The notes under the pieces were generated by a model. The model did not search any database. It saw nothing but the letters and a program-made list of their open reading frames with translations, and was not told where the DNA came from. Source: a virus (lineage: Duplodnaviria > Heunggongvirae > Uroviricota > Caudoviricetes). From it: a DNA stretch of 18,845 nt. The position numbers and the translations under genes are program-made. The stretch is from IMG/VR virus record IMGVR_UViG_3300015171_000003. One strand, 5' to 3'. Shown here one piece after another: positions 3,499 to 18,845 of the stretch (its first letter is position 1; each line of letters opens with the position of its first letter).

Positions 3499-4109
3499 TT
3501 ATTTTAAATCATTTAATGTAATCCATTTATTTTTTCCAAGAACTGCTTTATTAATATTTTCTGTTTGTTTACTAATTGCAAATAAAGTATCACAAGATTC
3601 ATAATAAGATCTATTATACATGGGATAAATTACGTCATCCCATATATTATAGTATATTATAGGTAATTTTTGCCTCAATTCATGTTCTATTTGAAATACA
3701 AATCCAAAAAATCTAGGATCGGTGAATAATCCAAGTGCATCTGGATTCTCTATCGACATAATTTGTCTAATAATATCTGGATTAGAATATCCGGTACAAG
3801 GATAAATTATTACATAAGCATCTTTAACACCAGTTTTTTCTGCTGTTGCTTGTGATAAATCTACTCTTTTACCTTCTTCTGGATGTTGCAATAATCCTCC
3901 TACACAACACCAATCATATTTATGTACTGTTCCAAATACTAATTCTCTTGCCATCGTTGCGATTCCACTTGAAAATCTAATTTTTCATTGCCCAAGATGT
4001 TACCACCTTGGGCTTCACCAATATCATCTGCCAAAAGAAAAATTTTCTTCTTCTTTAGCTGATGACTATTGGCCCCCTCCAAGGCTACTGTTTCATTGTT
4101 ATTACTCAT
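3499..4109 (-). CDS. GT4 glycosyltransferase, N-terminal portion, interrupted by a 41-nt insertion (joined product about 189 aa)
   Basis: 4109-4020 encodes MSNNNETVALEGANSHQLKKKKIFLLADDI; a different frame resumes at 3978 with RFSSGIATMARELVFG. Joined, this gives the expected GT-B beta1/Gly-loop start KKIFLLADDIRFSSGIATMARE. The ORF track shows only 3499-3954. Confidence 0.8.
3979..4019 (-). other. 41-nt coding-gap element with 10-bp GNRA hairpin, flanked by an ATT direct repeat
   Basis: ATT|GGTGAAGCCCAAGGTG-GTAA-CATCTTGGGCAATGAAAAATT|AGA; stem 4013-4004 pairs with 3999-3990; 18/41 GC. Confidence 0.8.
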
Positions 4110-5491: not shown

Positions 5492-6730
5492 CTATTGTCT
5501 TTCATTACAAAAGTCAATATTATTAGTTTTTTGAGTACAAGGAACTATAGATTCCTTATCTAAAACTTTCCAATAGAAACCTGTCCTATTGTTCTGCTTT
5601 AACCGTTCTTGTTCTCCGATCAGAGACAAGTTAAAAGATAGATTAACTGAAGCATTATAATCCGAATCACATTCATAAGAACATGTTCCACATCTAAACT
5701 TCTTCTTCGTTCTATTACTTTTCCGTACCCATCCACATTTGTTACATCTTTGACTTGTGTAAGTCGGATTTAAACGGTTTACTTGGACACCAAGTAAATT
5801 ACATCTGTCCTCCAACTTGTCTAGGATTTGTGGATAATTCCAATGAGAAAGTTTTCGGCTTGTCCGAAATCCTTTTCTCAAATTTTTTATGTTTTCTATA
5901 TTAATTTGTTTAACATTATTCAAATTTAATTGATTTATACTCCAATTAACAAAATTCTTTCTATGAGTTTGTGATTTTCTAAAATTAACAGAACCACGTT
6001 TCTTTTCGGATATTTTATTTATGATTTTATCTAAAGAATATCCATGATTATCTTCTTTAGATTTAATTCCATTAGAACAATAAAATAAATCTGTCTTTCC
6101 AATATCAATCCCGACAACATTTCCAGTTTCTACTTTTTTTGGTTCTTCTAAATCAAATATGAATGTTATCTCATTTTTAGATAATCTTATTCCTTTCTTA
6201 AGTTTCCCATTTTTTAATATCTTATTAAAATGTTTTGTCTTTTTTATCGGAATTCCTATCTTTAATTTATTTCCAAGTGATGTTAATGTCAACCAGATAT
6301 CAAATGAAGTTTTATTATCAGAATCAATTTTTACAAATCTTTCATCCAGTTCACATTCTAAATTTTCTATATTTGGTTTGTTTTGATTTATATTATTATA
6401 AATTTTCTGTAACTTTCTCGCTTTCTTAAATTTTCCTTGTTCTTTAAATTTATTTATTATAAACAATCTTCTTTGTTGTTTGACTTTTGTTCCTCGAACA
6501 ATCCCACTTGTTTGTTTTCCTAAACATTGGATTGTTCTTGCGGATAACCACGTTTCTACATCAGATGTTAATTCTTTTGGTAACAATGTCGGAACTTTTT
6601 CTAAATCCAATAATTTATCAATAAAAATCTTAGAAACTCTTTTATATTCTTCTATAAAAAAGTCGATTTTATCTAATTTGTTTTTATTAGAAAATTTTAA
6701 AGTGGATTTAGAAGACCGGATCATGATCAA
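5492..6730 (-). CDS. tnpB: TnpB RNA-guided endonuclease (IS607-associated)
   Basis: RuvC-I GIDIG, RuvC-II IENI, PTYTSQRCNKC...CGTC zinc finger, RuvC-III DSDYNAS; catalytic D/E/D all present. Confidence 0.93.
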   Translation of the reverse strand: MIMIRSSKSTLKFSNKNKLDKIDFFIEEYKRVSKIFIDKLLDLEKVPTLLPKELTSDVETWLSARTIQCLGKQTSGIVRGTKVKQQRRLFIINKFKEQGKFKKARKLQKIYNNINQNKPNIENLECELDERFVKIDSDNKTSFDIWLTLTSLGNKLKIGIPIKKTKHFNKILKNGKLKKGIRLSKNEITFIFDLEEPKKVETGNVVGIDIGKTDLFYCSNGIKSKEDNHGYSLDKIINKISEKKRGSVNFRKSQTHRKNFVNWSINQLNLNNVKQINIENIKNLRKGFRTSRKLSHWNYPQILDKLEDRCNLLGVQVNRLNPTYTSQRCNKCGWVRKSNRTKKKFRCGTCSYECDSDYNASVNLSFNLSLIGEQERLKQNNRTGFYWKVLDKESIVPCTQKTNNIDFCNERQ

Positions 6731-7286
6731 GTTCTTTAATTAATTGTTCTGTTTTTCTCTTAGATCTTCTTTGTCCATAAATTCTAGCACAAAATGAAGT
6801 TATTACATTTACAAAATCTTGGATTAAATCTTCTTTTTCATTTAAAATTTGATTGACATAAATTACTTCACAATTTATATGTTTACATAAAGTATCTATG
6901 TATGAAGAACCAAATCTGCTTAATCTATCTCTATGTTCCACTACGAGTTTTGTGACTTTTCCTTCAGATAAAATTTTTAATAATTTTTTCCGTTTATCAT
7001 TTAAACCACTACCAATTTCTTTAATATTTTCATCTGTTTTCCATCCATTTGCATTACAATAACTAATTAATCTATTGGACTGGGATTCTAAATTAATTTT
7101 ATTTTCTGAAGAAGAAACTCTCGCATAAGTTATCACATAATCTTGTTTTATAATAAGATTTTCTTCTGGCACGATGATTGTGCCAGAAGGTAATTTATAT
7201 GCTAGAGGAAGTTCTCCTCTATTAAACATTAACCATGCAGTTCTGTATAATATTCCTTGTTTTTTTGCCCAATGACTTAACTTCAT
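6708..7286 (-). CDS. tnpA: IS607 TnpA serine recombinase (likely start MKLSHWAK at 7286)
   Basis: N-terminal MerR-like HTH, YARVSS catalytic Ser motif, EIGSGLN, VVEHRDRLSRFG, DFVNVITSFCARIYG. Confidence 0.95.
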   Translation of the reverse strand: MKLSHWAKKQGILYRTAWLMFNRGELPLAYKLPSGTIIVPEENLIIKQDYVITYARVSSSENKINLESQSNRLISYCNANGWKTDENIKEIGSGLNDKRKKLLKILSEGKVTKLVVEHRDRLSRFGSSYIDTLCKHINCEVIYVNQILNEKEDLIQDFVNVITSFCARIYGQRRSKRKTEQLIKELDHDPVF

Positions 7287-7313
7287 ACATGATAAGTATG
7301 AAATGGAAATATA

Positions 7314-7343
7314 AAACAATAAAAAATAATAAAAAACAATAAA
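7314..7343 (-). repeat. three tandem 10-bp direct repeats at the IS607 left end (TTTATTGTTT/TTTATTATTT/TTTATTGTTT)
   Basis: Read directly; consistent with TnpA-binding repeats known at IS607 ends. Confidence 0.75.
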
Positions 7344-7461: not shown

Positions 7462-8283
7462 TTAAAATTTATATAATTCCCATGGTTTAGCAAATCCTTT
7501 AAATCCATCTTTTTCTGGTGTAAATGCTTCAAAATTATCTCCATAATGATACAAATACATTTCATTCTTAATTTTATCAGGCAAGAATTTCAATTCATCA
7601 TATGTTGCATGAACAGTTCCTGGAGAAAATAATTGACAATCATGAAAAATACATTTGTAATTTTCTATTGGAAAATCTTTAAAAATATTTGTATCAAATC
7701 TAGTATCTCCACTAAACATAACAGTATCATCAATAATTAACCCCGTTGTCCAAAATGCTTTACCCCATTCTTCTACACCACCAGGAACATGAATAGTTCT
7801 AAATATTTCCAATTTAATATCATCAACAATAACTTCATACTTTTCTCTTGGTTGTGCTGCCATCCATGTTGGATTAATAAAATCTACAAAATCAGAAAAT
7901 TTCAATCTACCATCTTCATTAATTTCACAACCACCCTTTAATGTTTTTTCCCATAAAATGTCAGCAAATGGAAATGTAATAATAAATCTAGACTTTCTTT
8001 TAGAAACATATCTGGACATTAATAAAAGCTCTTCCAAACCACCAGCATGATCGGCATGAGCATGAGTTACATGATAATAATCAAAATCAGTGATCTTAAT
8101 ACCCTGTCTATACAACGATTGTGGAATAGTAGTACCTACATCAACCAATATAGTTTTTCCTCCCTTAGCAATGATTATAGACGATTGATCATTCTTCTTC
8201 GCAAATGCACTTCCCACCCCAACAAATGTAATTACCAATTGTTTCTCAGAAGCTTTCTTTATTTTATTTAATATTTCACTCAT
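7462..8283 (-). CDS. apyc1: MBL-fold phosphodiesterase, Apyc1 (anti-Pycsar)-like
   Basis: GSAFAKK, THAHADHAGGLEE, LWEKTLKGG, SGDTRFD, FHDCQ, VHATYDEL and HYGDN occur in the order I recall for Apyc1 proteins. Confidence 0.8.
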   Translation of the reverse strand: MSEILNKIKKASEKQLVITFVGVGSAFAKKNDQSSIIIAKGGKTILVDVGTTIPQSLYRQGIKITDFDYYHVTHAHADHAGGLEELLLMSRYVSKRKSRFIITFPFADILWEKTLKGGCEINEDGRLKFSDFVDFINPTWMAAQPREKYEVIVDDIKLEIFRTIHVPGGVEEWGKAFWTTGLIIDDTVMFSGDTRFDTNIFKDFPIENYKCIFHDCQLFSPGTVHATYDELKFLPDKIKNEMYLYHYGDNFEAFTPEKDGFKGFAKPWELYKF

Positions 8284-12885: not shown

Positions 12886-13512
12886 ATGTTAAATTTATTT
12901 TATTCAGTATTATCACAAGCCAGAGTTAATACTACCCCCCCCCCAATATTAGTATATTTTAATCCGAGTGAAACATATTCTACTATAACACTTTCTAATA
13001 CAAATCAAACAGCAGGTCCTACTTCAGGAGCTAATTTGTCAACTTATTTAATTAATGGAAATACAACTGGAAAATTTTATGTTGAATTTATTGTTAATAC
13101 AGTTGATGCTACTAACTATCCATTTATAGGGGCGAGTAATATATTTAATGATGCCTCCTATCCAGGAGGAATGGGAGCAACTTCTTTTAGTACTCAATGT
13201 AGTGATGGTGGTGTTCCACATGCTCAAGGAGTCACTGTAACAGGAGTAAAAGCTGGTCAAATACTCGGTGGTAATAGAATTGGATATGCTATAGATATAG
13301 GTAATGGAAAATTTTGGATGAGTGTGAATGGTTCTTGGGCTAATAGCCAAAATCCAAGTAATGGAACAATTCCAATGGTGACTTGGACACCTTCCGGGAC
13401 ATTTTATCCATGTATTGGTATGCAGTCATCAGCCGTAATAACTGTATATGGAAATTCATCATTATGGACTTATACTAGACCAACAGGTTTTTTAGGTTTT
13501 GACGGAAGTTAA
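12886..13512 (+). CDS. SPRY/B30.2 (ConA-like beta-sandwich) domain protein, possible virion accessory or adhesin
   Basis: TGKFYVEF, IGYAIDIGNGKFWMSVNGSW, GTFYPCIG motifs; G/T/S/N-rich; the only convincing plus-strand gene. Confidence 0.78.
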   Translation: MLNLFYSVLSQARVNTTPPPILVYFNPSETYSTITLSNTNQTAGPTSGANLSTYLINGNTTGKFYVEFIVNTVDATNYPFIGASNIFNDASYPGGMGATSFSTQCSDGGVPHAQGVTVTGVKAGQILGGNRIGYAIDIGNGKFWMSVNGSWANSQNPSNGTIPMVTWTPSGTFYPCIGMQSSAVITVYGNSSLWTYTRPTGFLGFDGS

Positions 13513-13513
13513 C

Positions 13514-13546
13514 TTAATCAATACAAAGTTTTAAAACCTTAACTAT
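13514..13546 (+). repeat. 33-bp imperfect direct repeat, copy 2
   Basis: See copy 1; overlaps the stop codon of 13539-13943. Confidence 0.9.
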
Positions 13547-13943
13547 TCCATGCTTTCAAATAATCTTCGAGATGCATTCCAATTTCTAGATCATCTTCTG
13601 TTTCAAGATTTATTATTTTAAAATTAATCCAAGAATTATTAAAATTATCAACCAAATCTACTTCCAATAAAATATCATCGTTACTCCACAAAATCCCAAC
13701 TACATGTATATTATATTGATTATTTTCATTTAATAATTTTCTTGACGAAATCAAATCAGATATCAATTCTCGAAATTTGCAATAATCTAAAGTAATTATA
13801 ATAAGATTTTCTTCTTTTTTTGAAAAGTCTTCTGGCCTTAAACTTTCTATACTAATAGATAATTCCAATTCATCACCTTTAATTCTAAAAGAAAGAATAT
13901 AATCTTCTTGTCCACCAGCACTTATCTTTATTAATTTATTCAT
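13539..13943 (-). CDS. hypothetical protein
   Basis: 134-aa ORF overlapping upstream gene. Confidence 0.7.
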   Translation of the reverse strand: MNKLIKISAGGQEDYILSFRIKGDELELSISIESLRPEDFSKKEENLIIITLDYCKFRELISDLISSRKLLNENNQYNIHVVGILWSNDDILLEVDLVDNFNNSWINFKIINLETEDDLEIGMHLEDYLKAWNS

Positions 13944-14187
13944 ATGAAGTTTTTTGTTTTTTGCCTTTTAAAACTTGTTCAGCACCTTTGATAAATAAAT
14001 CATCGGCGGGTATCTTTTCAAATTCCTTTACTAAACAATTAAAACTTAAATCACAATTGAAATATACTAATTCCCCATTTCCATTAGTACATTCAAATGC
14101 CAATCTGTTATCTTTCATCATTACTAATTTGTGACTACTATATATTTTATTTAAAATGAAAATAGCTCGTTGCATTTTACTTTTCAT
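13936..14187 (-). CDS. hypothetical protein
   Basis: 83-aa ORF in coupled array. Confidence 0.7.
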   Translation of the reverse strand: MKSKMQRAIFILNKIYSSHKLVMMKDNRLAFECTNGNGELVYFNCDLSFNCLVKEFEKIPADDLFIKGAEQVLKGKKQKTSYE

Positions 14188-14359
14188 AATTTATAGTTCC
14201 ATCTTTATTTAATATGAATGATATGTTAATCTCTTCTAGTGGATAATATATTAGCATATTTATATCAATTTTGTTTTTATCTGTATCAAAATTTCCAGAA
14301 TAAATAGTTATCATTCCATTTTCATCTATTGTTTTACTTTCGGGGATATATGTAATCAT
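14177..14359 (-). CDS. hypothetical protein
   Basis: 60-aa ORF in coupled array. Confidence 0.6.
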   Translation of the reverse strand: MITYIPESKTIDENGMITIYSGNFDTDKNKIDINMLIYYPLEEINISFILNKDGTINYEK

Positions 14360-14469
14360 AATTTCTTTTTATATTTTTTAAACCCCAAATATTCCAACAA
14401 CTGACGCAAATAACAAATCGGCGGAGTATCATCATCTAAAGATTTTTTGCAATATGGACATTTACTCAT
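14356..14469 (-). CDS. 37-aa CxxC peptide MSKCPYCKKSLDDDTPPICYLRQLLEYLGFKKYKKKL
   Basis: Below ORF-track cutoff; ATGA overlaps with both neighbours fill the gap exactly. Confidence 0.7.
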   Translation of the reverse strand: MSKCPYCKKSLDDDTPPICYLRQLLEYLGFKKYKKKL

Positions 14470-14675
14470 TCTGTAATAGTATCTAATTGTTTCCTAATAT
14501 ATCTCATAAAAATCATTCCTTTATCTTCTGGAAGGAATGTTCCTTCGCCAGTATCAGAAATTGGTACTGGAAATTGAAAATTTTTGTCAACAACTTCATA
14601 CCACAATTCATTTTTCCTATAAAATAGAAATTTAACTTTGGTTCCCGACACTAAATCTTTAATATTTGTTTTCAT
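14466..14675 (-). CDS. hypothetical phage protein
   Basis: 69-aa ORF, FPVPISDTG...FMRYIRK. Confidence 0.75.
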   Translation of the reverse strand: MKTNIKDLVSGTKVKFLFYRKNELWYEVVDKNFQFPVPISDTGEGTFLPEDKGMIFMRYIRKQLDTITE

Positions 14676-14686
14676 TTATATAATTT

Positions 14687-14857
14687 CTATTTTTCCAATA
14701 CAGGATTTTCTAGTGGAGATACTTCTGTTTCAATGTCCCACTTACTATACATTTTGTTTAGCATATCTTTAATATCGTTAATTGCTTCATCTTCAGTTTC
14801 TGGTTCACAATAAGGAAAATGTATTGTTATTTTTAAATTTACTGGATATGTTTTCAT
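14687..14857 (-). CDS. 56-aa hypothetical protein MKTYPVNLKITIHFPYCEPETEDEA...
   Basis: Manual translation; starts 1 nt after upstream stop and fills the gap. Confidence 0.7.
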   Translation of the reverse strand: MKTYPVNLKITIHFPYCEPETEDEAINDIKDMLNKMYSKWDIETEVSPLENPVLEK

Positions 14858-14858
14858 T

Positions 14859-15083
14859 TTATTCTTTACTTAATTCATTTTCTGTTTGATCGCTACCCAA
14901 ATTATCACATTCATCATGTGCATAATGGCCATCACAAAGAGAACATTTGGAAGACCATGGGGATTTATCTTTTGATTTTTTATTTTTCGTCTTTCTAAAA
15001 ATAGAATCAAAATTTTTCTTATAATTTCCCGAAAAACAATTTCTTGGGGAATCTCCTTTGCCATTTTGATTTGGTTTACTCAT
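14859..15083 (-). CDS. small basic protein with GKGDSPR motif and C-terminal Cys/His cluster
   Basis: ORF with own promoter; CSLCDGHYAHDEC possible metal site. Confidence 0.7.
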   Translation of the reverse strand: MSKPNQNGKGDSPRNCFSGNYKKNFDSIFRKTKNKKSKDKSPWSSKCSLCDGHYAHDECDNLGSDQTENELSKE

Positions 15084-15092
15084 ATATACAAT

Positions 15093-15121
15093 ATTATGTG
15101 ATATTTTTATATAATTGTAAA
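15093..15121 (-). promoter_or_regulatory. sigma70-like promoter TTTACA-17-CATAAT
   Basis: -10 ends 9 nt before ATG 15083. Confidence 0.6.
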
Positions 15122-15122
15122 C

Positions 15123-15743
15123 TTATTTTTTTCTAAATACTAAAAAATAAGAGTGATATATTCTAGCATGTTTTTGTTTTTTATTTTTGCCAATTGGAAT
15201 TCTATGTTTTGCACCTAATATGAATAAATCTTCAGTATCAAATCCAATTTCTCCTGCCAAATTTAAAACCAACTGATGAGTACAATGCATAGAATGATTG
15301 TGAATAATATCTTGACATTTAACAACAAATATTCCATCTTTTTTTAAAACTCTATATGCGTCTGCAATTGTTCTTGAATAATGCACAATCAATTCATCAT
15401 ATTTCCAATAACCTCCAAATCTGGAACTCATTATTGACTTTTTAGTTGTTCCATGTTCTCTTCCATTTTTTACATAAGTTAAAAAAGGAGGATCAAACAT
15501 TATAGAAGAAAACTTATTATCTATTACATCAAGATTTCCACTATCACATTTAATAACATCAGAAAATAATGGATCAATATCAAATTTGTATTTTGGTTGA
15601 TTTCTATTCTTATAAAATGAACCATTCCCATATGTTACATCACATTCAAATCCATCAGGAAGATATAATTTCTCAATGGCATCTAATATTTCATCATTTG
15701 AAAAATACAAACTTTTAATTACTATATCATTTTTCATCTTCAT
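15123..15743 (-). CDS. orphan amino (N6-A/N4-C) DNA methyltransferase
   Basis: CDVTYGNGSF SAM-binding motif I, FDPPF motif IV, RVLKKDGIFVVKC. Confidence 0.82.
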   Translation of the reverse strand: MKMKNDIVIKSLYFSNDEILDAIEKLYLPDGFECDVTYGNGSFYKNRNQPKYKFDIDPLFSDVIKCDSGNLDVIDNKFSSIMFDPPFLTYVKNGREHGTTKKSIMSSRFGGYWKYDELIVHYSRTIADAYRVLKKDGIFVVKCQDIIHNHSMHCTHQLVLNLAGEIGFDTEDLFILGAKHRIPIGKNKKQKHARIYHSYFLVFRKK

Positions 15744-16260
15744 TTTTTACAATTATTATTTTATTGTTTTCATAATTTATATTATACAAATTTTTGTCCA
15801 AAAACTTATTAAAATCTATTTTGAATAGTCTGAATCTTGCTTTGTCTATGAATGGAAAATTTAATTTTTCGTTGGGTAGCTTTTCAAAAAAATATGGAAT
15901 AATTTCATTCAGTATAATATAAAAGTGAGTATTGTATATTTTAGAATCATAATCCATTTTATAATAAACATTAGGTCTATTATAATTTGGTCTCCCATTT
16001 TCATCTTCAAACCATAACTTTACATCAAATTCATCTCCATTTTTTAATAAACGAATGTTGTGAATTTTTTCATGAATATCATAAAATTTAAACCAACATT
16101 TACCAACAGATGTGTATGAATAATGATCTTGAGGGTTTACTAATTCAGAAATTATTATATGATTCTCATAAGCAATAGATTCTTCTAAATCCAATTGTTT
16201 ATATTCATTTTCTTCTAATAATTCTTTCAATAAGTTTTTTATACTACCCCACTTGTTCAT
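15727..16260 (-). CDS. hypothetical protein
   Basis: 177-aa ORF overlapping both neighbours. Confidence 0.7.
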   Translation of the reverse strand: MNKWGSIKNLLKELLEENEYKQLDLEESIAYENHIIISELVNPQDHYSYTSVGKCWFKFYDIHEKIHNIRLLKNGDEFDVKLWFEDENGRPNYNRPNVYYKMDYDSKIYNTHFYIILNEIIPYFFEKLPNEKLNFPFIDKARFRLFKIDFNKFLDKNLYNINYENNKIIIVKNEDEK

Positions 16261-17026
16261 AAAATTTTTTTATTATATTTGTAAATTCATTTGGCAATAA
16301 ATTAAAACAATAATCCCTTATATTATTATCAATTGTATCTATTCCATAATATGCTTCACAAATTCCACCTGCCATTGCACAAATAGTATCAGTGTCTCCA
16401 CCAATATAAATACATTTTTTCATACAATCTACAAAAGAATTTGATATATAAAAACAATATAGTGCCTCTGAAACAGTTCCTTCACAAGTAGCATTTCCAA
16501 TATAATTTTTATGCAAATCTTCTAAATTCTTATCTTTAATGGAAAATCCATATTTTTCTTCTAAATAACTAATTATTATATCTTTATTTTTATCTATTTT
16601 TGCTTTAAAAATAGCCTCTGCAATACAAAGACCTCCTCTAATTCCTTCTAGAGTATTATGGGTGGACTTGCAAGATTTTTCCGCTTCTTTTATCATATCA
16701 GAATATTCTTTATAATAAAATGGAATTGGGGATATTCTCATAGCAGACCCATTTCCAAAACTAGGAATAATTGGCATATCATTAATAAGCCACATTTTAA
16801 ATCTAGAACTAAATCCAGAATTAATATATTTTCTTCCCCATTTCTTAAAACTATCAATATATTGATTATTATTTAATAAACAATCCATCACGGCAATTGT
16901 AAGAACAGTGTCATCTGTAAATCTACAATCCTTGTGTATCAATTCATTACTATTAATATTTTGTTTATTTAATTTTGGACCTTCAAATCTAGATCCTATT
17001 ATGTCACCAATTATACTGCCAATCAT
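16244..17026 (-). CDS. ADP-ribosylglycohydrolase (DraG/ARH family); ATG start at 17026
   Basis: GDIIGSRFE, FTDDTVLT, GNGSAMRISP, THN, GGDTDTICAMAGG motifs. Confidence 0.93.
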   Translation of the reverse strand: MIGSIIGDIIGSRFEGPKLNKQNINSNELIHKDCRFTDDTVLTIAVMDCLLNNNQYIDSFKKWGRKYINSGFSSRFKMWLINDMPIIPSFGNGSAMRISPIPFYYKEYSDMIKEAEKSCKSTHNTLEGIRGGLCIAEAIFKAKIDKNKDIIISYLEEKYGFSIKDKNLEDLHKNYIGNATCEGTVSEALYCFYISNSFVDCMKKCIYIGGDTDTICAMAGGICEAYYGIDTIDNNIRDYCFNLLPNEFTNIIKKFYEQVG

Positions 17027-17032
17027 CAAACA

Positions 17033-17061
17033 ATTATATGATATTGATGGTTACATGTCAA
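17033..17061 (-). promoter_or_regulatory. perfect consensus promoter TTGACA-17-TATAAT
   Basis: -35 at 17061-17056, -10 at 17038-17033, ATG 6 nt downstream. Confidence 0.88.
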
Positions 17062-17099
17062 AATAAAATAACCCAACTTAATTTAAAAATTGGGTTATT
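17058..17099 (-). terminator. intrinsic terminator after HNH gene
   Basis: 10-bp inverted repeat AATAACCCAA/TTGGGTTATT (17099-17090 with 17076-17067) followed by TTATTTT. Confidence 0.65.
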
Positions 17100-17123
17100 C
17101 TACCTTGTAGTTCTGGTGGTGAT

Positions 17124-17759
17124 TTACTTAGCAACAATAAAGTGCTTATGATCTTCATTCCTAATATCCTTAATAATCGCAGAAATAGGCATAGGCACAG
17201 GCTCCTTTGGAATCTTAATCAACTTATAACCAATTTCTTCATTTAACATATGTCCTTTCTTGGAATTCAAGTCCTTGTGACAAAGTACCATATTTGACCA
17301 AGTATTTTGACCGCCCCTTGCTTTTGGAATTACATGATCAATATTAGCAGTACTCTTTGTGAGAAGTTGACCACTGTACTGACAAATAAATTTATCTCGT
17401 TGAGCAATACTCATTTTTGTTGGTCTTGCTTTCTTGACTGGCATCTTTTTGAAATGTACATTAACAATAACAGTAGGGACCCGACATGCTTGCTTTACAC
17501 TAGAAATAGACAAATCCCAAGGTCTAATTGGCAATTTAATCCAATCTTCCCACTTTACAGGATTCATATAAATAATATTGTCAGTTAATGGATTTCCATT
17601 TTCATCCTTCTCATATTCAATGTCAAGAGCATGTGCTGGTGGACATTCATCAGTTCCTCCAGTCATTGCAACAATTGCATCCTTGACACTCAACATTCTA
17701 ATTGGTAGCCAATTTCCATTCAAACTTAATACCACAATCTTATTTACAATCGTACTCAT
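17124..17759 (-). CDS. HNH endonuclease with N-terminal VLSLN..W domain
   Basis: RDKFICQYSG, NIDHVIPKARGG, N.VLC...NSKKG. Confidence 0.9.
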   Translation of the reverse strand: MSTIVNKIVVLSLNGNWLPIRMLSVKDAIVAMTGGTDECPPAHALDIEYEKDENGNPLTDNIIYMNPVKWEDWIKLPIRPWDLSISSVKQACRVPTVIVNVHFKKMPVKKARPTKMSIAQRDKFICQYSGQLLTKSTANIDHVIPKARGGQNTWSNMVLCHKDLNSKKGHMLNEEIGYKLIKIPKEPVPMPISAIIKDIRNEDHKHFIVAK

Positions 17760-17785
17760 ATATTTAATTATTTACTATTTATAAA

Positions 17786-17814
17786 AATATACAACTATTC
17801 TTATAAAAAGTCAA
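17786..17814 (-). promoter_or_regulatory. sigma70-like promoter TTGACT-17-TATATT
   Basis: -35 at 17814-17809, -10 at 17791-17786 upstream of the HNH gene. Confidence 0.6.
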
Positions 17815-17849
17815 TTGTTATTTCGGCATTATTCTTTTATTATAAAATT

Positions 17850-17926
17850 TGGAGCCTAATATCAAAAATCGAATTGATATTTTTGCTTTTACCGAAGCAA
17901 TGTTCTTCCACTTGAACTAATTAGGC
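17850..17926 (-). tRNA. atypical or degenerate tRNA-Thr(GGT)-like, 8-nt anticodon loop and 8-nt T-loop
   Basis: Acceptor GCCTAAT/ATTAGGC, D-arm GTTC/GAAC, TTGCT-TCGGTAAA-AGCAA, ATCAA-TTCGATTT-TTGAT, encoded CCA. Confidence 0.7.
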
Positions 17927-18020
17927 ATATAGACCATTTACTTTGGTCAAAACGGTTAGACTTATATGAAATGCCAGTGGCAGAGCATATCCTGCGTGTA
18001 CTTTGCTGTTCTAACTTGGA

Positions 18021-18269
18021 TTATTCAAAATCATCTAAATGTATCTTAAAAAAATCAACAATCTCTTCCCAAGTTTTAGCACTTTCATTTACTTTTGATC
18101 TATCATCATCATTATCACTCCTATCAAACACTTCTAAAAAATAAGTCCCGTCTTCATTTAAAGAAATGATCTCGCTAATTTCTGAATCACTATAATAATA
18201 AAAATTATCTTCTGGATAATAATTAAAATCACAATATTCTAATATCTCGCGTTGTTTTTCTGTGAACAT
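18021..18269 (-). CDS. acidic hypothetical protein within tRNA cluster
   Basis: 82-aa ORF starting 2 nt after the tRNA-Ser CCA. Confidence 0.7.
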   Translation of the reverse strand: MFTEKQREILEYCDFNYYPEDNFYYYSDSEISEIISLNEDGTYFLEVFDRSDNDDDRSKVNESAKTWEEIVDFFKIHLDDFE

Positions 18270-18271
18270 AA

Positions 18272-18361
18272 TGGCGGAAGTAGTCAGAGTTCAACTGACG
18301 GACCCTTGCGGATCGGCACATTAGCAGTATGCTGTAGAAAAGCGACATCTACGTTACTTCC
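18272..18361 (-). tRNA. tRNA-Ser(GCT), class II, non-canonical D/T loops
   Basis: GGAAGTA/TACTTCC acceptor, G73, CCA, anticodon loop CT-GCT-AA, variable arm with GCAA loop, T-arm GTCAG-TTGAACT-CTGAC. Confidence 0.85.
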
Positions 18362-18439
18362 AATAATCTATAACTATTGTTTGAAATTTTCTTAATAGAT
18401 CAAATCATACGTCATCTATTTAATTTATTTCAAACAAAT

Positions 18440-18525
18440 TGGTAGGAGAAGTGGGATTTAAACCCACGATATCTTGCGATAGATGCTTATGAAACATCTT
18501 GCTTAAATCACTTGCATATTCTCCC
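18440..18525 (-). tRNA. class II tRNA with CAT anticodon (Met/Ile2 anticodon on a Leu-like body)
   Basis: GGGAGAA/TTCTCCT acceptor, A73, CCA, loop TT-CAT-AA, variable arm TATC-GCAA-GATA, T-arm GTGGG-TTTAAAT-CCCAC. Confidence 0.85.
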
Positions 18526-18598
18526 ATAACTTTTCAAAGTATTCTCACAAAAATCGGGTATTTTTTTGGCAAAGCTCCTAAAAATGCAGAAACTGCTT

Positions 18599-18835
18599 CC
18601 GTTCTAATAAACCTACAAAAATCTAAATTCATACTTTTAAATAATAAATTGTTGACTCTTTGTTATCTTCTTGTTTCTTCGGTATCACTTTTTTCTGAAT
18701 TGCTCCAGACCAAGAGGCGATGTCTCCACAAGCGTTAATTCCCGTAGAACTTACGGTATTTTGTCTTAAAAATTCTTCTCCACACTTCTTTAAATTTTTA
18801 GTATCAAAACTATCATTTTTCTTAAAAAATGTCAA
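18599..18835 (-). mobile_element. remnant 3' end and right end of a second IS607/TnpB element (probable omegaRNA region)
   Basis: Translates to a TnpB-like C-terminus (NLKK...NTVSSTGINACGD...KQE) with degenerate RuvC-III and an upstream in-frame TAA; ends ...TTTATTAGAACGG as I recall for IS607 right ends. Confidence 0.6.
18807..18835 (-). promoter_or_regulatory. promoter TTGACA-17-TAGTTT with TGn extension
   Basis: -35 at 18835-18830, TGA then -10 at 18812-18807. Confidence 0.5.
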
Positions 18836-18845
18836 AATATTTTAA

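What the first reader, a model, noticed from the sequence alone, without database searches (positions are those of the whole stretch)
17850..17926. tRNA-Thr-like gene with an 8-nt anticodon loop
Seen: perfect acceptor, D, anticodon and T stems and an encoded CCA, yet an anticodon loop UCGGUAAA (8 nt, C at 33), an 8-nt T-loop and A53-U61. Established: expanded anticodon loops can cause +1 frameshift or quadruplet decoding. Inference: frameshift-suppressor tRNA, nuclease decoy, or decaying gene. Both extra bases are in homopolymer runs, so sequencing error is possible.
Basis: partly seen in the sequence, partly recalled or inferred. Interest (0 to 1): 0.5.

Follow-up and report, generated by a model that had tools for sequence, protein, structure and literature searches.

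The report
Phage threonine tRNA with two enlarged loops
This is a real transfer-RNA gene for threonine in an uncultured large phage that carries one extra base in each of two loops; it is most likely a recently damaged or weakened copy, not a purpose-built device for reading four-letter codons.

Summary
Window 17850-17926 (minus strand) is a 77-nt cloverleaf with 21 of 21 Watson-Crick pairs, an encoded CCA, the 8-nt anticodon loop UCGGUAAA, the 8-nt T loop UUCGAUUU and A53-U61. Default tRNA finders miss it. ARAGORN at 95% threshold calls it. Rfam's tRNA model gives 33.0 bits (cut-off 29) when the stretch is searched alone. It is a tRNA-Thr(GGU): its two best global-alignment matches among 363 phage tRNAs are both Thr(GGU). 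In distant relatives Thr(GGU) genes lie in tRNA arrays beside a gene of the same HNH family.

C33 is a family trait, not decay: 24 of 218 unique tRNAs in related phage arrays have it, including 4 of 6 Thr(GGU). The 8-nt loops are not shared. All 10 Thr(GGU) relatives have 7-nt loops, as do 268 of 268 (T loop) and 267 of 268 (anticodon loop) related phage tRNAs.

Sequencing error is unlikely. A second assembly reproduces the stretch, and 476 homopolymer runs lie in 28 open frames. No gene needing a +1 shift at ACY-N was found in the window.

Best reading (0.5): two lineage-specific slippage insertions in a gene under relaxed constraint. A working, possibly toxin-evading or shift-prone tRNA is not excluded.

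The parts
17850..17926 (-). tRNA-Thr(GGU)-like gene, 77 nt, with encoded CCA
   Evidence: ARAGORN -ps95. Rfam RF00005 33.0 bits on the stretch alone. Model R1 49.6 bits, E 1e-9, full length.
17888..17895 (-). 8-nt anticodon loop UCGGUAAA (C33; GGU at 17891-17893). The extra A lies at the 3' side, in an A4 run that continues into the stem.
   Evidence: Read directly. R1 alignment puts a 1-nt insertion after UCGGUAA. All 10 Thr(GGU) relatives have 7-nt loops.
17866..17873 (-). 8-nt T loop UUCGAUUU. The extra U lies at the 3' side, in a U5 run that continues into the stem.
   Evidence: Read directly. Rfam and R1 alignments both mark a 1-nt insertion there. 268 of 268 related phage tRNAs have 7-nt T loops.
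17874..17878 (-). T stem 5' strand AUCAA; with 17861-17865 it gives A53-U61 in place of G53-C61
   Evidence: Read directly. The closing T-stem pair is G-C in 265 of 268 related phage tRNAs and A-U in 2.
17850..17852 (-). Encoded CCA end, preceded by discriminator U at 17853
   Evidence: Read directly.
17124..17759 (-). HNH endonuclease-family gene (211 aa) directly downstream. This is the syntenic anchor shared with relatives' tRNA arrays.
   Evidence: Pfam HNH_5, 40.3 bits. Homologues L001-L108. A same-strand tRNA ends within 400 nt upstream of the homologue in 26 of 68 loci that hold at least 400 nt upstream.
18440..18525 (-). Neighbouring tRNA(CAU), 86 nt, with a hairpin in the variable region; both loops 7 nt
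   Evidence: ARAGORN default. Rfam 47.7 bits. Brackets.
18272..18361 (-). Neighbouring class II Ser(GCU)-like tRNA with encoded CCA. It was read by eye and both tools missed it.
Evidence: Read directly. No Rfam hit even when the stretch is searched alone.

Best explanation
This is a genuine phage tRNA-Thr(GGU) gene at the downstream end of a small tRNA cluster. It belongs to a phage Thr(GGU) type that often carries C33.

In this lineage alone it has gained one A in the A-run at the 3' side of the anticodon loop and one U in the U-run at the 3' side of the T loop. It has also swapped G53-C61 for A-U. The two extra bases look like replication-slippage insertions in a 28% G+C genome.

The most economical reading is that the first change weakened the tRNA and the second then met little selection. 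On this reading the gene is in early decay, or is at best a poor, shift-prone threonine decoder. It is not a dedicated four-base decoder.

Shown: the anatomy, the family relationship, the absence of the 8-nt loops in relatives, and the reproducibility of the assembly. Inferred: slippage as the cause, the order of events, and the loss of function.
For: Three rare traits sit in one gene:
- An 8-nt anticodon loop is seen in 0 of 268 unique ARAGORN (-ps95) tRNAs of loci L001-L108.
- An 8-nt T loop is seen in 0 of those 268.
- A non-G-C closing pair of the T stem is seen in 3 of 268.

All 10 Thr(GGU) relatives have 7-nt loops of both kinds. Model R1, built from nine of them without the window gene, aligns the gene over its full length. 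It shows exactly one inserted base at the 3' end of each loop and one missing base in the variable loop. Both insertions lie in homopolymer runs.

The two neighbouring tRNAs of the same window have 7-nt loops of both kinds and a G-C closing pair in the T stem (read directly; for the CAU tRNA).

A working tRNA with an extra base 3' of the anticodon would risk +1 shifts at ACY codons. These make up 112 of 5351 codons in the window's 28 ORFs. No ORF pair in the window needs such a shift.

Standard detection scores are low. ARAGORN default misses the gene and Rfam gives 33.0 bits against 47.7 for the neighbour.
Against: There is no sign of decay outside the loops and the 53-61 pair.
- 21 of 21 pairs are Watson-Crick.
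- Every stem difference from the two nearest relatives is two-sided and keeps pairing: 10 of 10 against L168 and 8 of 8 against L245. This shows long-term selection on structure, though not necessarily current selection.
- The tertiary and identity nucleotides are kept: U8, A14, G18, G19, A21, U54, U55, C56, A58, G1-C72, C2-G71, G35, U36 and CCA. The ThrRS identity rules are recalled, not tested.
- Both insertions lie where loops should tolerate them best. They are 3' of the anticodon stack and 3' of the T54-A58 core.

8-nt anticodon loops can still bind cognate triplets in the A site, as shown for SufJ (PMC4238358, passages). No sister genome was found, so the age of the insertions and any conservation are unknown. 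No RNA data exist.
Confidence: 0.5

Rival explanations
1. It is a working threonine tRNA whose unusual anticodon loop (C33 plus an extra A) is tolerated or selected. The altered loop would escape host or competitor enzymes that cut or modify tRNA anticodon loops, and the tRNA would still read ACC/ACU as triplets.
For: C33 recurs in this phage group. It is present in 24 of 218 unique tRNAs, in 12 of 15 Leu(GAG) and in 4 of 6 Thr(GGU). It is also present in L153 and L168 from IMG/VR.

Phage tRNAs are proposed to evade anticodon nucleases through loop changes (PMC10264068, section 4). tRNA-Thr(GGU) is the specific target of at least one toxin, an ADP-ribosyltransferase acting on its anticodon (PMC13617354, abstract and section 18 part 1).

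The window carries counter-defence genes: Apyc1 at 7462-8283 and an ADP-ribosylglycohydrolase at 16244-17029. The stems and tertiary bases are intact. ACU and ACC are 112 of 248 Thr codons.
Against: C33 can be had with a 7-nt loop, as all C33 relatives show. So C33 does not explain the extra A, the 8-nt T loop or A53-U61. The host and its nucleases are unknown. There is no expression or charging evidence.
Confidence: 0.27
2. It is a natural +1 frameshift-promoting (four-base-reading) tRNA-Thr, used to express or rescue phage genes that need a +1 shift at ACC-N or ACU-N.
For: It has an 8-nt anticodon loop with the extra base next to the anticodon on its 3' side. [quoted passage not shown] Elsewhere this genome has a frame-breaking gap in a glycosyltransferase gene and an in-frame stop in an ATP-grasp gene (earlier notes).
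Against: No pair of minus-strand ORFs in the window needs a +1 shift at an ACY codon. The few overlaps that hold ACT-N are ordinary neighbouring genes. For the 941-1570 / 1-939 pair I checked that the downstream gene has its own ATG.

The glycosyltransferase gap at 3979-4022 is 41 nt. Upstream and downstream frames read differ by +2/-1, not +1.

The trait is absent from all relatives. Untargeted shifting at 2.1% of codons would be costly. Only 18.8 kb of a much larger genome could be examined.
Confidence: 0.07
3. It is a tRNA-like RNA that is not used in translation. It could be a decoy that soaks up a tRNA-directed defence enzyme, or a processing or structural element of the tRNA transcript.
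For: A tRNA shape and CCA are kept while the loops that matter for ribosome function are altered. It lies in a counter-defence-rich genome.
Against: There is no precedent in the papers searched and no conservation of the altered form. Nothing distinguishes this reading from plain decay.
Confidence: 0.08
4. The two extra bases are assembly or sequencing errors in homopolymer runs, and the real gene has 7-nt loops.
For: Both extra bases are in runs (A4, U5). Only one run holds the DNA, and it is probably the source sample. Only contigs, not raw reads, could be laid.
Against: Logan's separate assembly of run X1 covers 12935-18627 in one 5695-nt contig at depth 11, with 0 other letters and 0 gaps. 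The window's 28 ORFs (16,053 nt) hold 476 homopolymer runs of 4 or more bases and all 28 frames are open. Two indel errors within 77 nt are therefore improbable.
Confidence: 0.05

Closest known systems
Phage-encoded tRNA-Thr(GGU) genes of large-phage tRNA arrays (L168/L220, L245, L153, L042, L054, L058, L060, L074, L077, L087)
   Same: The anticodon GGU is shared. The loop UCGGUAA with C33 is present in 6 of the 10. The D arm is nearly identical to that of L168, and the variable loop and T loop resemble those of L245. Like them, the gene lies in a tRNA array next to a gene of the same HNH family. CCA is encoded.
   Different: All 10 have 7-nt anticodon and T loops and a G-C closing pair in the T stem. 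The window gene has 8-nt loops of both kinds and an A-U closing pair. It is also far more A+T-rich (34% G+C against 50-65%).
SufJ, the Salmonella +1 frameshift suppressor derived from tRNA-Thr3(GGU) (PMC4238358, passages read)
   Same: It is the same isoacceptor with an 8-nt anticodon loop. SufJ shows that such a loop still pairs with ACC as a triplet in the A site and then promotes a +1 shift.
   Different: SufJ's extra base is C31.5, on the 5' side next to the stem. Here the extra base is an A on the 3' side, and position 33 is C rather than U. SufJ is a laboratory mutant selected for suppression. No suppression is shown here.
SufA6 / SufB2, tRNA-Pro frameshift suppressors with an extra base 3' of the anticodon
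   Same: The extra base is on the 3' side of the anticodon, as here.
   Different: They are a different isoacceptor (Pro, CCC-N), with an extra G beside m1G37. They are laboratory mutants. [quoted passage not shown] The exact 37.5 position is recalled.
Natural tRNAs with non-standard anticodon loop size (yeast mitochondrial tRNA, tRNAs in a phage, a glass-sponge mitochondrial tRNA), as listed in Atkins et al. 2016 (PMC5009743, passage read)
   Same: They are naturally occurring expanded anticodon loops, including some in a phage. The first three listed are stated not to be known to mediate frameshifting.
   Different: The phage cases are said to have many relatives, which suggests conservation. 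No relative shares the trait here. The cited reference could not be read because the reference list lies beyond the held text.

Membership tests
tRNA (Rfam RF00005) | Score at or above the curated gathering score | tested here: met
   33.0 bits against 29 when 17835-17940 is searched alone. There is no hit when the whole window or 17700-18845 is searched, presumably because the filters dropped it.
tRNA (Rfam RF00005) | Cloverleaf of four stems, with U8, A14, G18, G19, U54-U55-C56 and A58 | tested here: met
   ARAGORN drawing and direct reading. 21 of 21 pairs are Watson-Crick.
tRNA (Rfam RF00005) | 7-nt anticodon loop with U33 | tested here: not met
   The loop is UCGGUAAA: 8 nt, with C at 33.
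tRNA (Rfam RF00005) | 7-nt T loop closed by G53-C61 | tested here: not met
   The loop is UUCGAUUU, 8 nt, closed by A-U.
tRNA-Thr(GGU) isoacceptor | GGU at the anticodon position and closest sequence relatives are Thr(GGU) | tested here: met
   By global alignment score against 363 unique phage tRNAs, the two best matches are both Thr(GGU): L245 (score 28, 54 of 77 identical) and L168 (score 19, 50 identical). The next best score is 10. Model R1 alone does not settle the isoacceptor. The gene's 49.6 bits rank 14th of 65 matches, below all 10 Thr(GGU) (58.3-96.4) and level with other tRNAs.
tRNA-Thr(GGU) isoacceptor | ThrRS identity elements (G1-C72, C2-G71, G35, U36; rules recalled for E. coli) and actual charging with threonine | not testable with these tools
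   The named bases are present. Charging needs an experiment.
+1 frameshift suppressor tRNAs (SufJ / SufA6 / SufB2 type) | Extra nucleotide in the anticodon loop | tested here: met
   There is one extra A 3' of GGU relative to all 10 relatives.
+1 frameshift suppressor tRNAs (SufJ / SufA6 / SufB2 type) | Measured +1 shift at the cognate codon plus one base | not testable with these tools
   This needs a reporter assay.
+1 frameshift suppressor tRNAs (SufJ / SufA6 / SufB2 type) | Genes in the same genome that need a +1 shift at ACY-N | tested here: inconclusive
   None was found among the window's ORF pairs. Only 18.8 kb is available and no whole genome is held.
Nuclease- or toxin-evading phage tRNAs (van den Berg et al. 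2023) | Anticodon-loop differences from the host's tRNA at the recognition or cleavage site of a host enzyme | not testable with these tools
   The host and its enzymes are unknown. C33 is shared with relatives, but its effect was not tested.
tRNA pseudogene | Disrupted stems, or loss of conserved tertiary or identity bases | tested here: not met
   There are 0 mismatches in 21 pairs and the conserved bases are present. Only loop sizes and 53-61 deviate, so 'pseudogene' is inferred from the rarity of these traits, not from visible wreckage.

The most novel reading that the evidence does not exclude
A phage carries a natural counterpart of the laboratory frameshift suppressors: a tRNA-Thr(GGU) with an extra base 3' of the anticodon. 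It would promote +1 shifts at ACC-N or ACU-N, either to express a frameshifted phage gene that lies outside this window or to buffer indels in a slippage-prone, A+T-rich genome. The C33 and the enlarged loops might at the same time keep it out of reach of anticodon-directed host toxins.
Probability: 0.07. Interest if true: 0.8.

Novelty: new member of a known kind. Interest (0 to 1): 0.33.

Why it matters
Natural tRNAs with enlarged anticodon loops are very rare. If this one were charged and used, it would be a natural counterpart, in a virus, of the laboratory frameshift-suppressor tRNAs. That would bear on how reading frame is kept and on four-base-codon engineering.

As it stands, the gene is a single unconserved case and most likely impaired, so its weight is modest.

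The more solid by-product is that C33, in place of the near-universal U33, is common in the tRNA arrays of a widespread group of large environmental phages (24 of 218 unique tRNAs). That deserves a test for links to t6A modification or to evasion of anticodon-directed enzymes. The case also shows that default tRNA finders miss such genes.

Tried and rejected
Searches that led nowhere:
- (IMG/VR pattern) was mis-spaced: 19 N where the gene has 17 (checked). Its zero result means nothing. Searches used patterns that do match the window.
- blastn of 17780-18560 against INPHARED phages found no match.
- JGI metagenome contigs held 0 matches to the D-arm/GGTA/TTCGA pattern.
- IMG/VR with a looser D-arm pattern found only the L168/L220 contig.
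- GTDB genome contigs gave 2 matches, both non-tRNA chance hits.
- The 82-aa ORF inside the cluster has no relative in IMG/VR.
- Helicase relatives L008 and L009 are only 34% identical and have no tRNA nearby. tRNA arrays elsewhere in those records hold no similar gene.
- The T-arm pattern of the neighbouring tRNA(CAU) gave 25 IMG/VR loci, none a sister phage. Among their 80 unique tRNAs, one (L246, Glu) was drawn with an 8-nt T loop but with mismatched stems.

Reads: only run X1 holds the stretch, and it is kept as contigs. No RNA holder is listed. X2 and X3 hold next to nothing.

Signals: the promoter and terminator scan gave 9 promoter-like sites against 6.7 expected from shuffles, which decides nothing.

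Link to the 41-nt glycosyltransferase gap: rejected, because the frames on its two sides differ by +2/-1.

The 93-nt spacer at 17927-18020 has no meaningful Rfam match.

Integration-site remnant: rejected. The cloverleaf is complete and no integrase lies beside it.

Literature: no paper in the held library joins bacteriophage with the eight-base anticodon-loop phrases (1 paper returned, a general review). A search on mycobacteriophage frameshift tRNAs found nothing relevant.

Full report
**What is there.** The window is 27.9% G+C. Nearly all its genes lie on the minus strand and read cleanly under the standard code. No whole genome is held for it. Earlier notes of this scan describe it as part of a large uncultured phage.

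On the minus strand of 17850-17926 lies a 77-nt sequence that folds as a cloverleaf. Its parts are:
- a 7-bp acceptor stem
- a 4-bp D stem with an 8-nt loop that holds GG
- a 5-bp anticodon stem with the loop UCGGUAAA
- a 4-nt variable loop
- a 5-bp T stem ending in A53-U61, with the loop UUCGAUUU
- discriminator U and an encoded CCA

All 21 pairs are Watson-Crick.

**Is it more than chance, and is it a tRNA?** ARAGORN at default settings reports only the neighbouring tRNA(CAU). At a 95% threshold it reports this gene as tRNA-?(Thr|Tyr) with a four-base anticodon ggta. In 200 dinucleotide shuffles of the window, that threshold gave 2 hits in 3.77 Mb and the default gave none.

Rfam's tRNA model found nothing here when the whole window or 17700-18845 was searched. 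When only 17835-17940 was given, it scored the gene at 33.0 bits, above the curated 29. It marked an inserted base in the T loop and a longer anticodon loop.

The minimum-energy fold is cloverleaf-like: -18.4 kcal/mol, z -2.55, with 3 of 200 shuffles as good. It extends the anticodon stem to 6 bp with a 6-nt loop. So the gene is a tRNA by the family's own score, but it fails the 7-nt-loop, U33 and G53-C61 features.

**Sequencing error?** Only one public run holds the stretch. It is a soil metagenome and probably the source. It is kept as contigs, so reads could not be counted.

Its independent Logan assembly covers 12935-18627 in one 5695-nt contig at depth 11, with no differing letter and no gap. 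The 28 ORFs of the window (16,053 nt) hold 476 homopolymer runs of four or more bases, and all 28 frames are open. Indel errors in runs must therefore be rare in this assembly. Two of them within one 77-nt gene are improbable. I put this reading at 0.05.

**Relatives.** No close relative of this phage was found. One early pattern was mis-spaced and is void.

The 211-aa HNH-family protein directly downstream (17124-17759; Pfam HNH_5) has many distant homologues: 36-53% identity in 80 metagenome loci and 43-51% in 7 IMG/VR loci. Of the 68 loci with at least 400 nt upstream, 26 have a same-strand tRNA ending within 400 nt upstream of the homologue. In 37 there is one within 1500 nt. The arrangement of a tRNA array followed by this gene is therefore widespread.

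Seven of those arrays hold a tRNA-Thr(GGU). A scan of IMG/VR for the loop motif plus T-loop and CCA landmarks returned 80 of 111 matching stretches. Only two were tRNAs, L153 and L168. Both are Thr(GGU) with the 7-nt loop UCGGUAA.

L168 (also held as L220) has a D arm almost identical to the window gene's. It sits in a nine-tRNA array that encloses a homologue of the same HNH gene.

By global alignment score against 363 unique phage tRNAs, the two best matches are both Thr(GGU): L245 (54 of 77 identical) and L168 (50).

A covariance model built from nine Thr(GGU) relatives, without the window gene, matches the gene over its full length at 49.6 bits (E 1e-9). It places exactly one inserted base at the 3' end of the anticodon loop, one at the 3' end of the T loop, and one missing base in the variable loop. 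That score alone does not fix the isoacceptor. The model also hits other tRNAs at similar scores, and the gene ranks 14th of 65.

**What is shared and what is not.** C33 is shared. Among 218 unique tRNAs called at default threshold in the related loci, position 33 is U in 193, C in 24 and A in 1. C33 is present in 12 of 15 Leu(GAG) and 4 of 6 Thr(GGU). It is also present in L153 and L168.

The enlarged loops are not shared:
- All 10 Thr(GGU) relatives have 7-nt loops of both kinds.
- Among 268 unique tRNAs (95% threshold) of the related loci, the T loop is 7 nt in all 268 and the anticodon loop is 7 nt in 267.
- The closing pair of the T stem is G-C in 265 of 268.

A caveat applies here. The finder penalises odd loops, so some such genes may have gone unseen.

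The two other tRNAs of the window have 7-nt loops and a G-C closing pair in the T stem (read directly; for the CAU tRNA).

**Signs of selection.** Against its two nearest relatives, every stem difference is two-sided and keeps pairing: 10 of 10 against L168 and 8 of 8 against L245. This shows long-standing selection on the fold.

It says little about the present. A second slippage in a 5-base run may be about as likely as a first stem-breaking substitution (my own rough estimate, not a tool result).

**Decoding.** Thr codons in the window's ORFs are ACT 99, ACC 13, ACA 124 and ACG 12, out of 5351 codons. A G34 tRNA would serve 112 of the 248 Thr codons.

Laboratory suppressors show what an 8-nt loop can do. 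SufJ is tRNA-Thr(GGU) with C31.5. [quoted passage not shown] Suppressors with the extra base 3' of the anticodon also exist. SufA6 is named in those passages, SufB2 appears in a search listing, and the exact position is recalled.

A review states that almost all tRNAs have standard loop sizes. It says the few natural exceptions, including tRNAs in a phage, are not known to mediate frameshifting (PMC5009743, passage; its reference list is not held).

I looked for ORF pairs in +1 relation with an ACY codon in the overlap. I found only ordinary neighbouring genes. The 41-nt gap in the glycosyltransferase gene noted earlier is +2/-1, not +1. Untargeted shifting at 2.1% of codons would be costly to the phage.

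**Defence context.** Phage tRNAs have been proposed to escape anticodon nucleases through loop changes (PMC10264068, section 4). A type VI toxin ADP-ribosylates the anticodon of charged tRNA-Thr(GGU) specifically (PMC13617354, abstract and section 18 part 1).

The window carries an Apyc1-type anti-Pycsar gene and an ADP-ribosylglycohydrolase.

Evidence on how C33 affects t6A modification is mixed. C33 blocked t6A formation by the E. coli TsaBCDE enzymes on a U33C initiator tRNA (PMC8887486, passages). A later structure paper reports no base-specific contact with U33 (PMC13276492, passages).

These facts make an evasion role for C33 plausible. None of them explains the extra bases.

**Verdict.** The gene is real, and it is a phage tRNA-Thr(GGU) of a C33-bearing type. 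Its two enlarged loops and A53-U61 are peculiar to this lineage. Three traits that selection removes almost everywhere else are found together in one gene, and both insertions lie in slippage-prone runs. That is best explained by relaxed constraint.

My estimates for each reading:

| Reading | Confidence |
|---|---|
| Early decay, or a weakened and possibly shift-prone decoder | 0.5 |
| Functional variant, possibly useful against anticodon-directed enzymes | 0.27 |
| Non-translational tRNA-like role | 0.08 |
| Dedicated frameshift tRNA | 0.07 |
| Sequencing or assembly error | 0.05 |

Raw reads, the full genome, sister phages, and charging and reporter assays would decide between them.

Noticed in passing
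Loci L001-L108 (tRNA arrays of related large phages); window 17894: C33 replaces the near-universal U33 in 24 of 218 unique tRNAs of these arrays. It is concentrated in Leu(GAG) (12 of 15, loop UCGAGAG) and Thr(GGU) (4 of 6), and occurs singly or in pairs in Gly, His, Ile, Pro and Val. The 15 papers listed from the C33/U33 search (19 found) and the 12 listed from the phage-tRNA/U33 search (65 found) include none that describes this in phages.
   Followed up: partly
window 17124-17759 and homologues in L001-L108, L220:1633-2205: A conserved 190-211-aa HNH-family protein sits directly after, or inside, phage tRNA arrays. A same-strand tRNA ends within 400 nt upstream in 26 of 68 loci, and within 1500 nt in 37 of 68. 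It could be a homing endonuclease that favours tRNA clusters, or it could have a tRNA-related role.
   Followed up: partly
Loci L001-L108: Most T loops in these arrays begin UGCGA or UGCAA (142 of 268 unique tRNAs). That puts G at position 55 where tRNAs normally have U (pseudouridine). The D loops lack the usual GG.
   Followed up: no
window 18440-18525 (-); L011:1501-1595, L012:1929-2021, L034:578-672 and others: The window's tRNA(CAU) is 86 nt, with a small hairpin in the variable region. Relatives carry 92-95-nt tRNA-Ile(UAU) genes with a long extra arm. Long extra arms on Met/Ile-type anticodons are unusual.
   Followed up: no
L079:2121-2195: ARAGORN calls a tRNA with anticodon UUA (it would read the stop codon UAA) inside a tRNA array upstream of the HNH homologue.
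   Followed up: no
window 16244-17029 and 7462-8283: An ADP-ribosylglycohydrolase gene (Pfam 108 bits) lies about 800 nt downstream of the tRNA cluster, and an Apyc1-type anti-Pycsar gene (121.6 bits) lies further on. A toxin is known to ADP-ribosylate tRNA-Thr(GGU) (PMC13617354), so the hydrolase is worth testing on modified tRNA. This is pure speculation here.
   Followed up: no
window 17927-18020: The 93-nt spacer between the 82-aa ORF and the tRNA looks more G+C-rich than its surroundings by eye (not measured) and holds small hairpins. It has no meaningful Rfam match and no ARAGORN call even at an 80% threshold.
   Followed up: partly
window 18598-18845: Logan's assembly breaks into short pieces at 2.5-6 times the depth of the rest (27-65 against 11), with loose ends. 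This suggests a repeat at the end of the contig.
   Followed up: no
window 5492-7319: A TnpB-like ORF (412 aa) overlaps a serine-recombinase-like ORF (203 aa). This is the layout of an IS607-type insertion element inside the phage genome. I read it from the translations and ran no family search.
   Followed up: no
window 3990-4017 (+): The hairpin inside the 41-nt coding gap of the glycosyltransferase gene gave a weak hit to the acceptor-stem ends of the Thr tRNA model (10.2 bits, E 0.85). This is probably chance.
   Followed up: no
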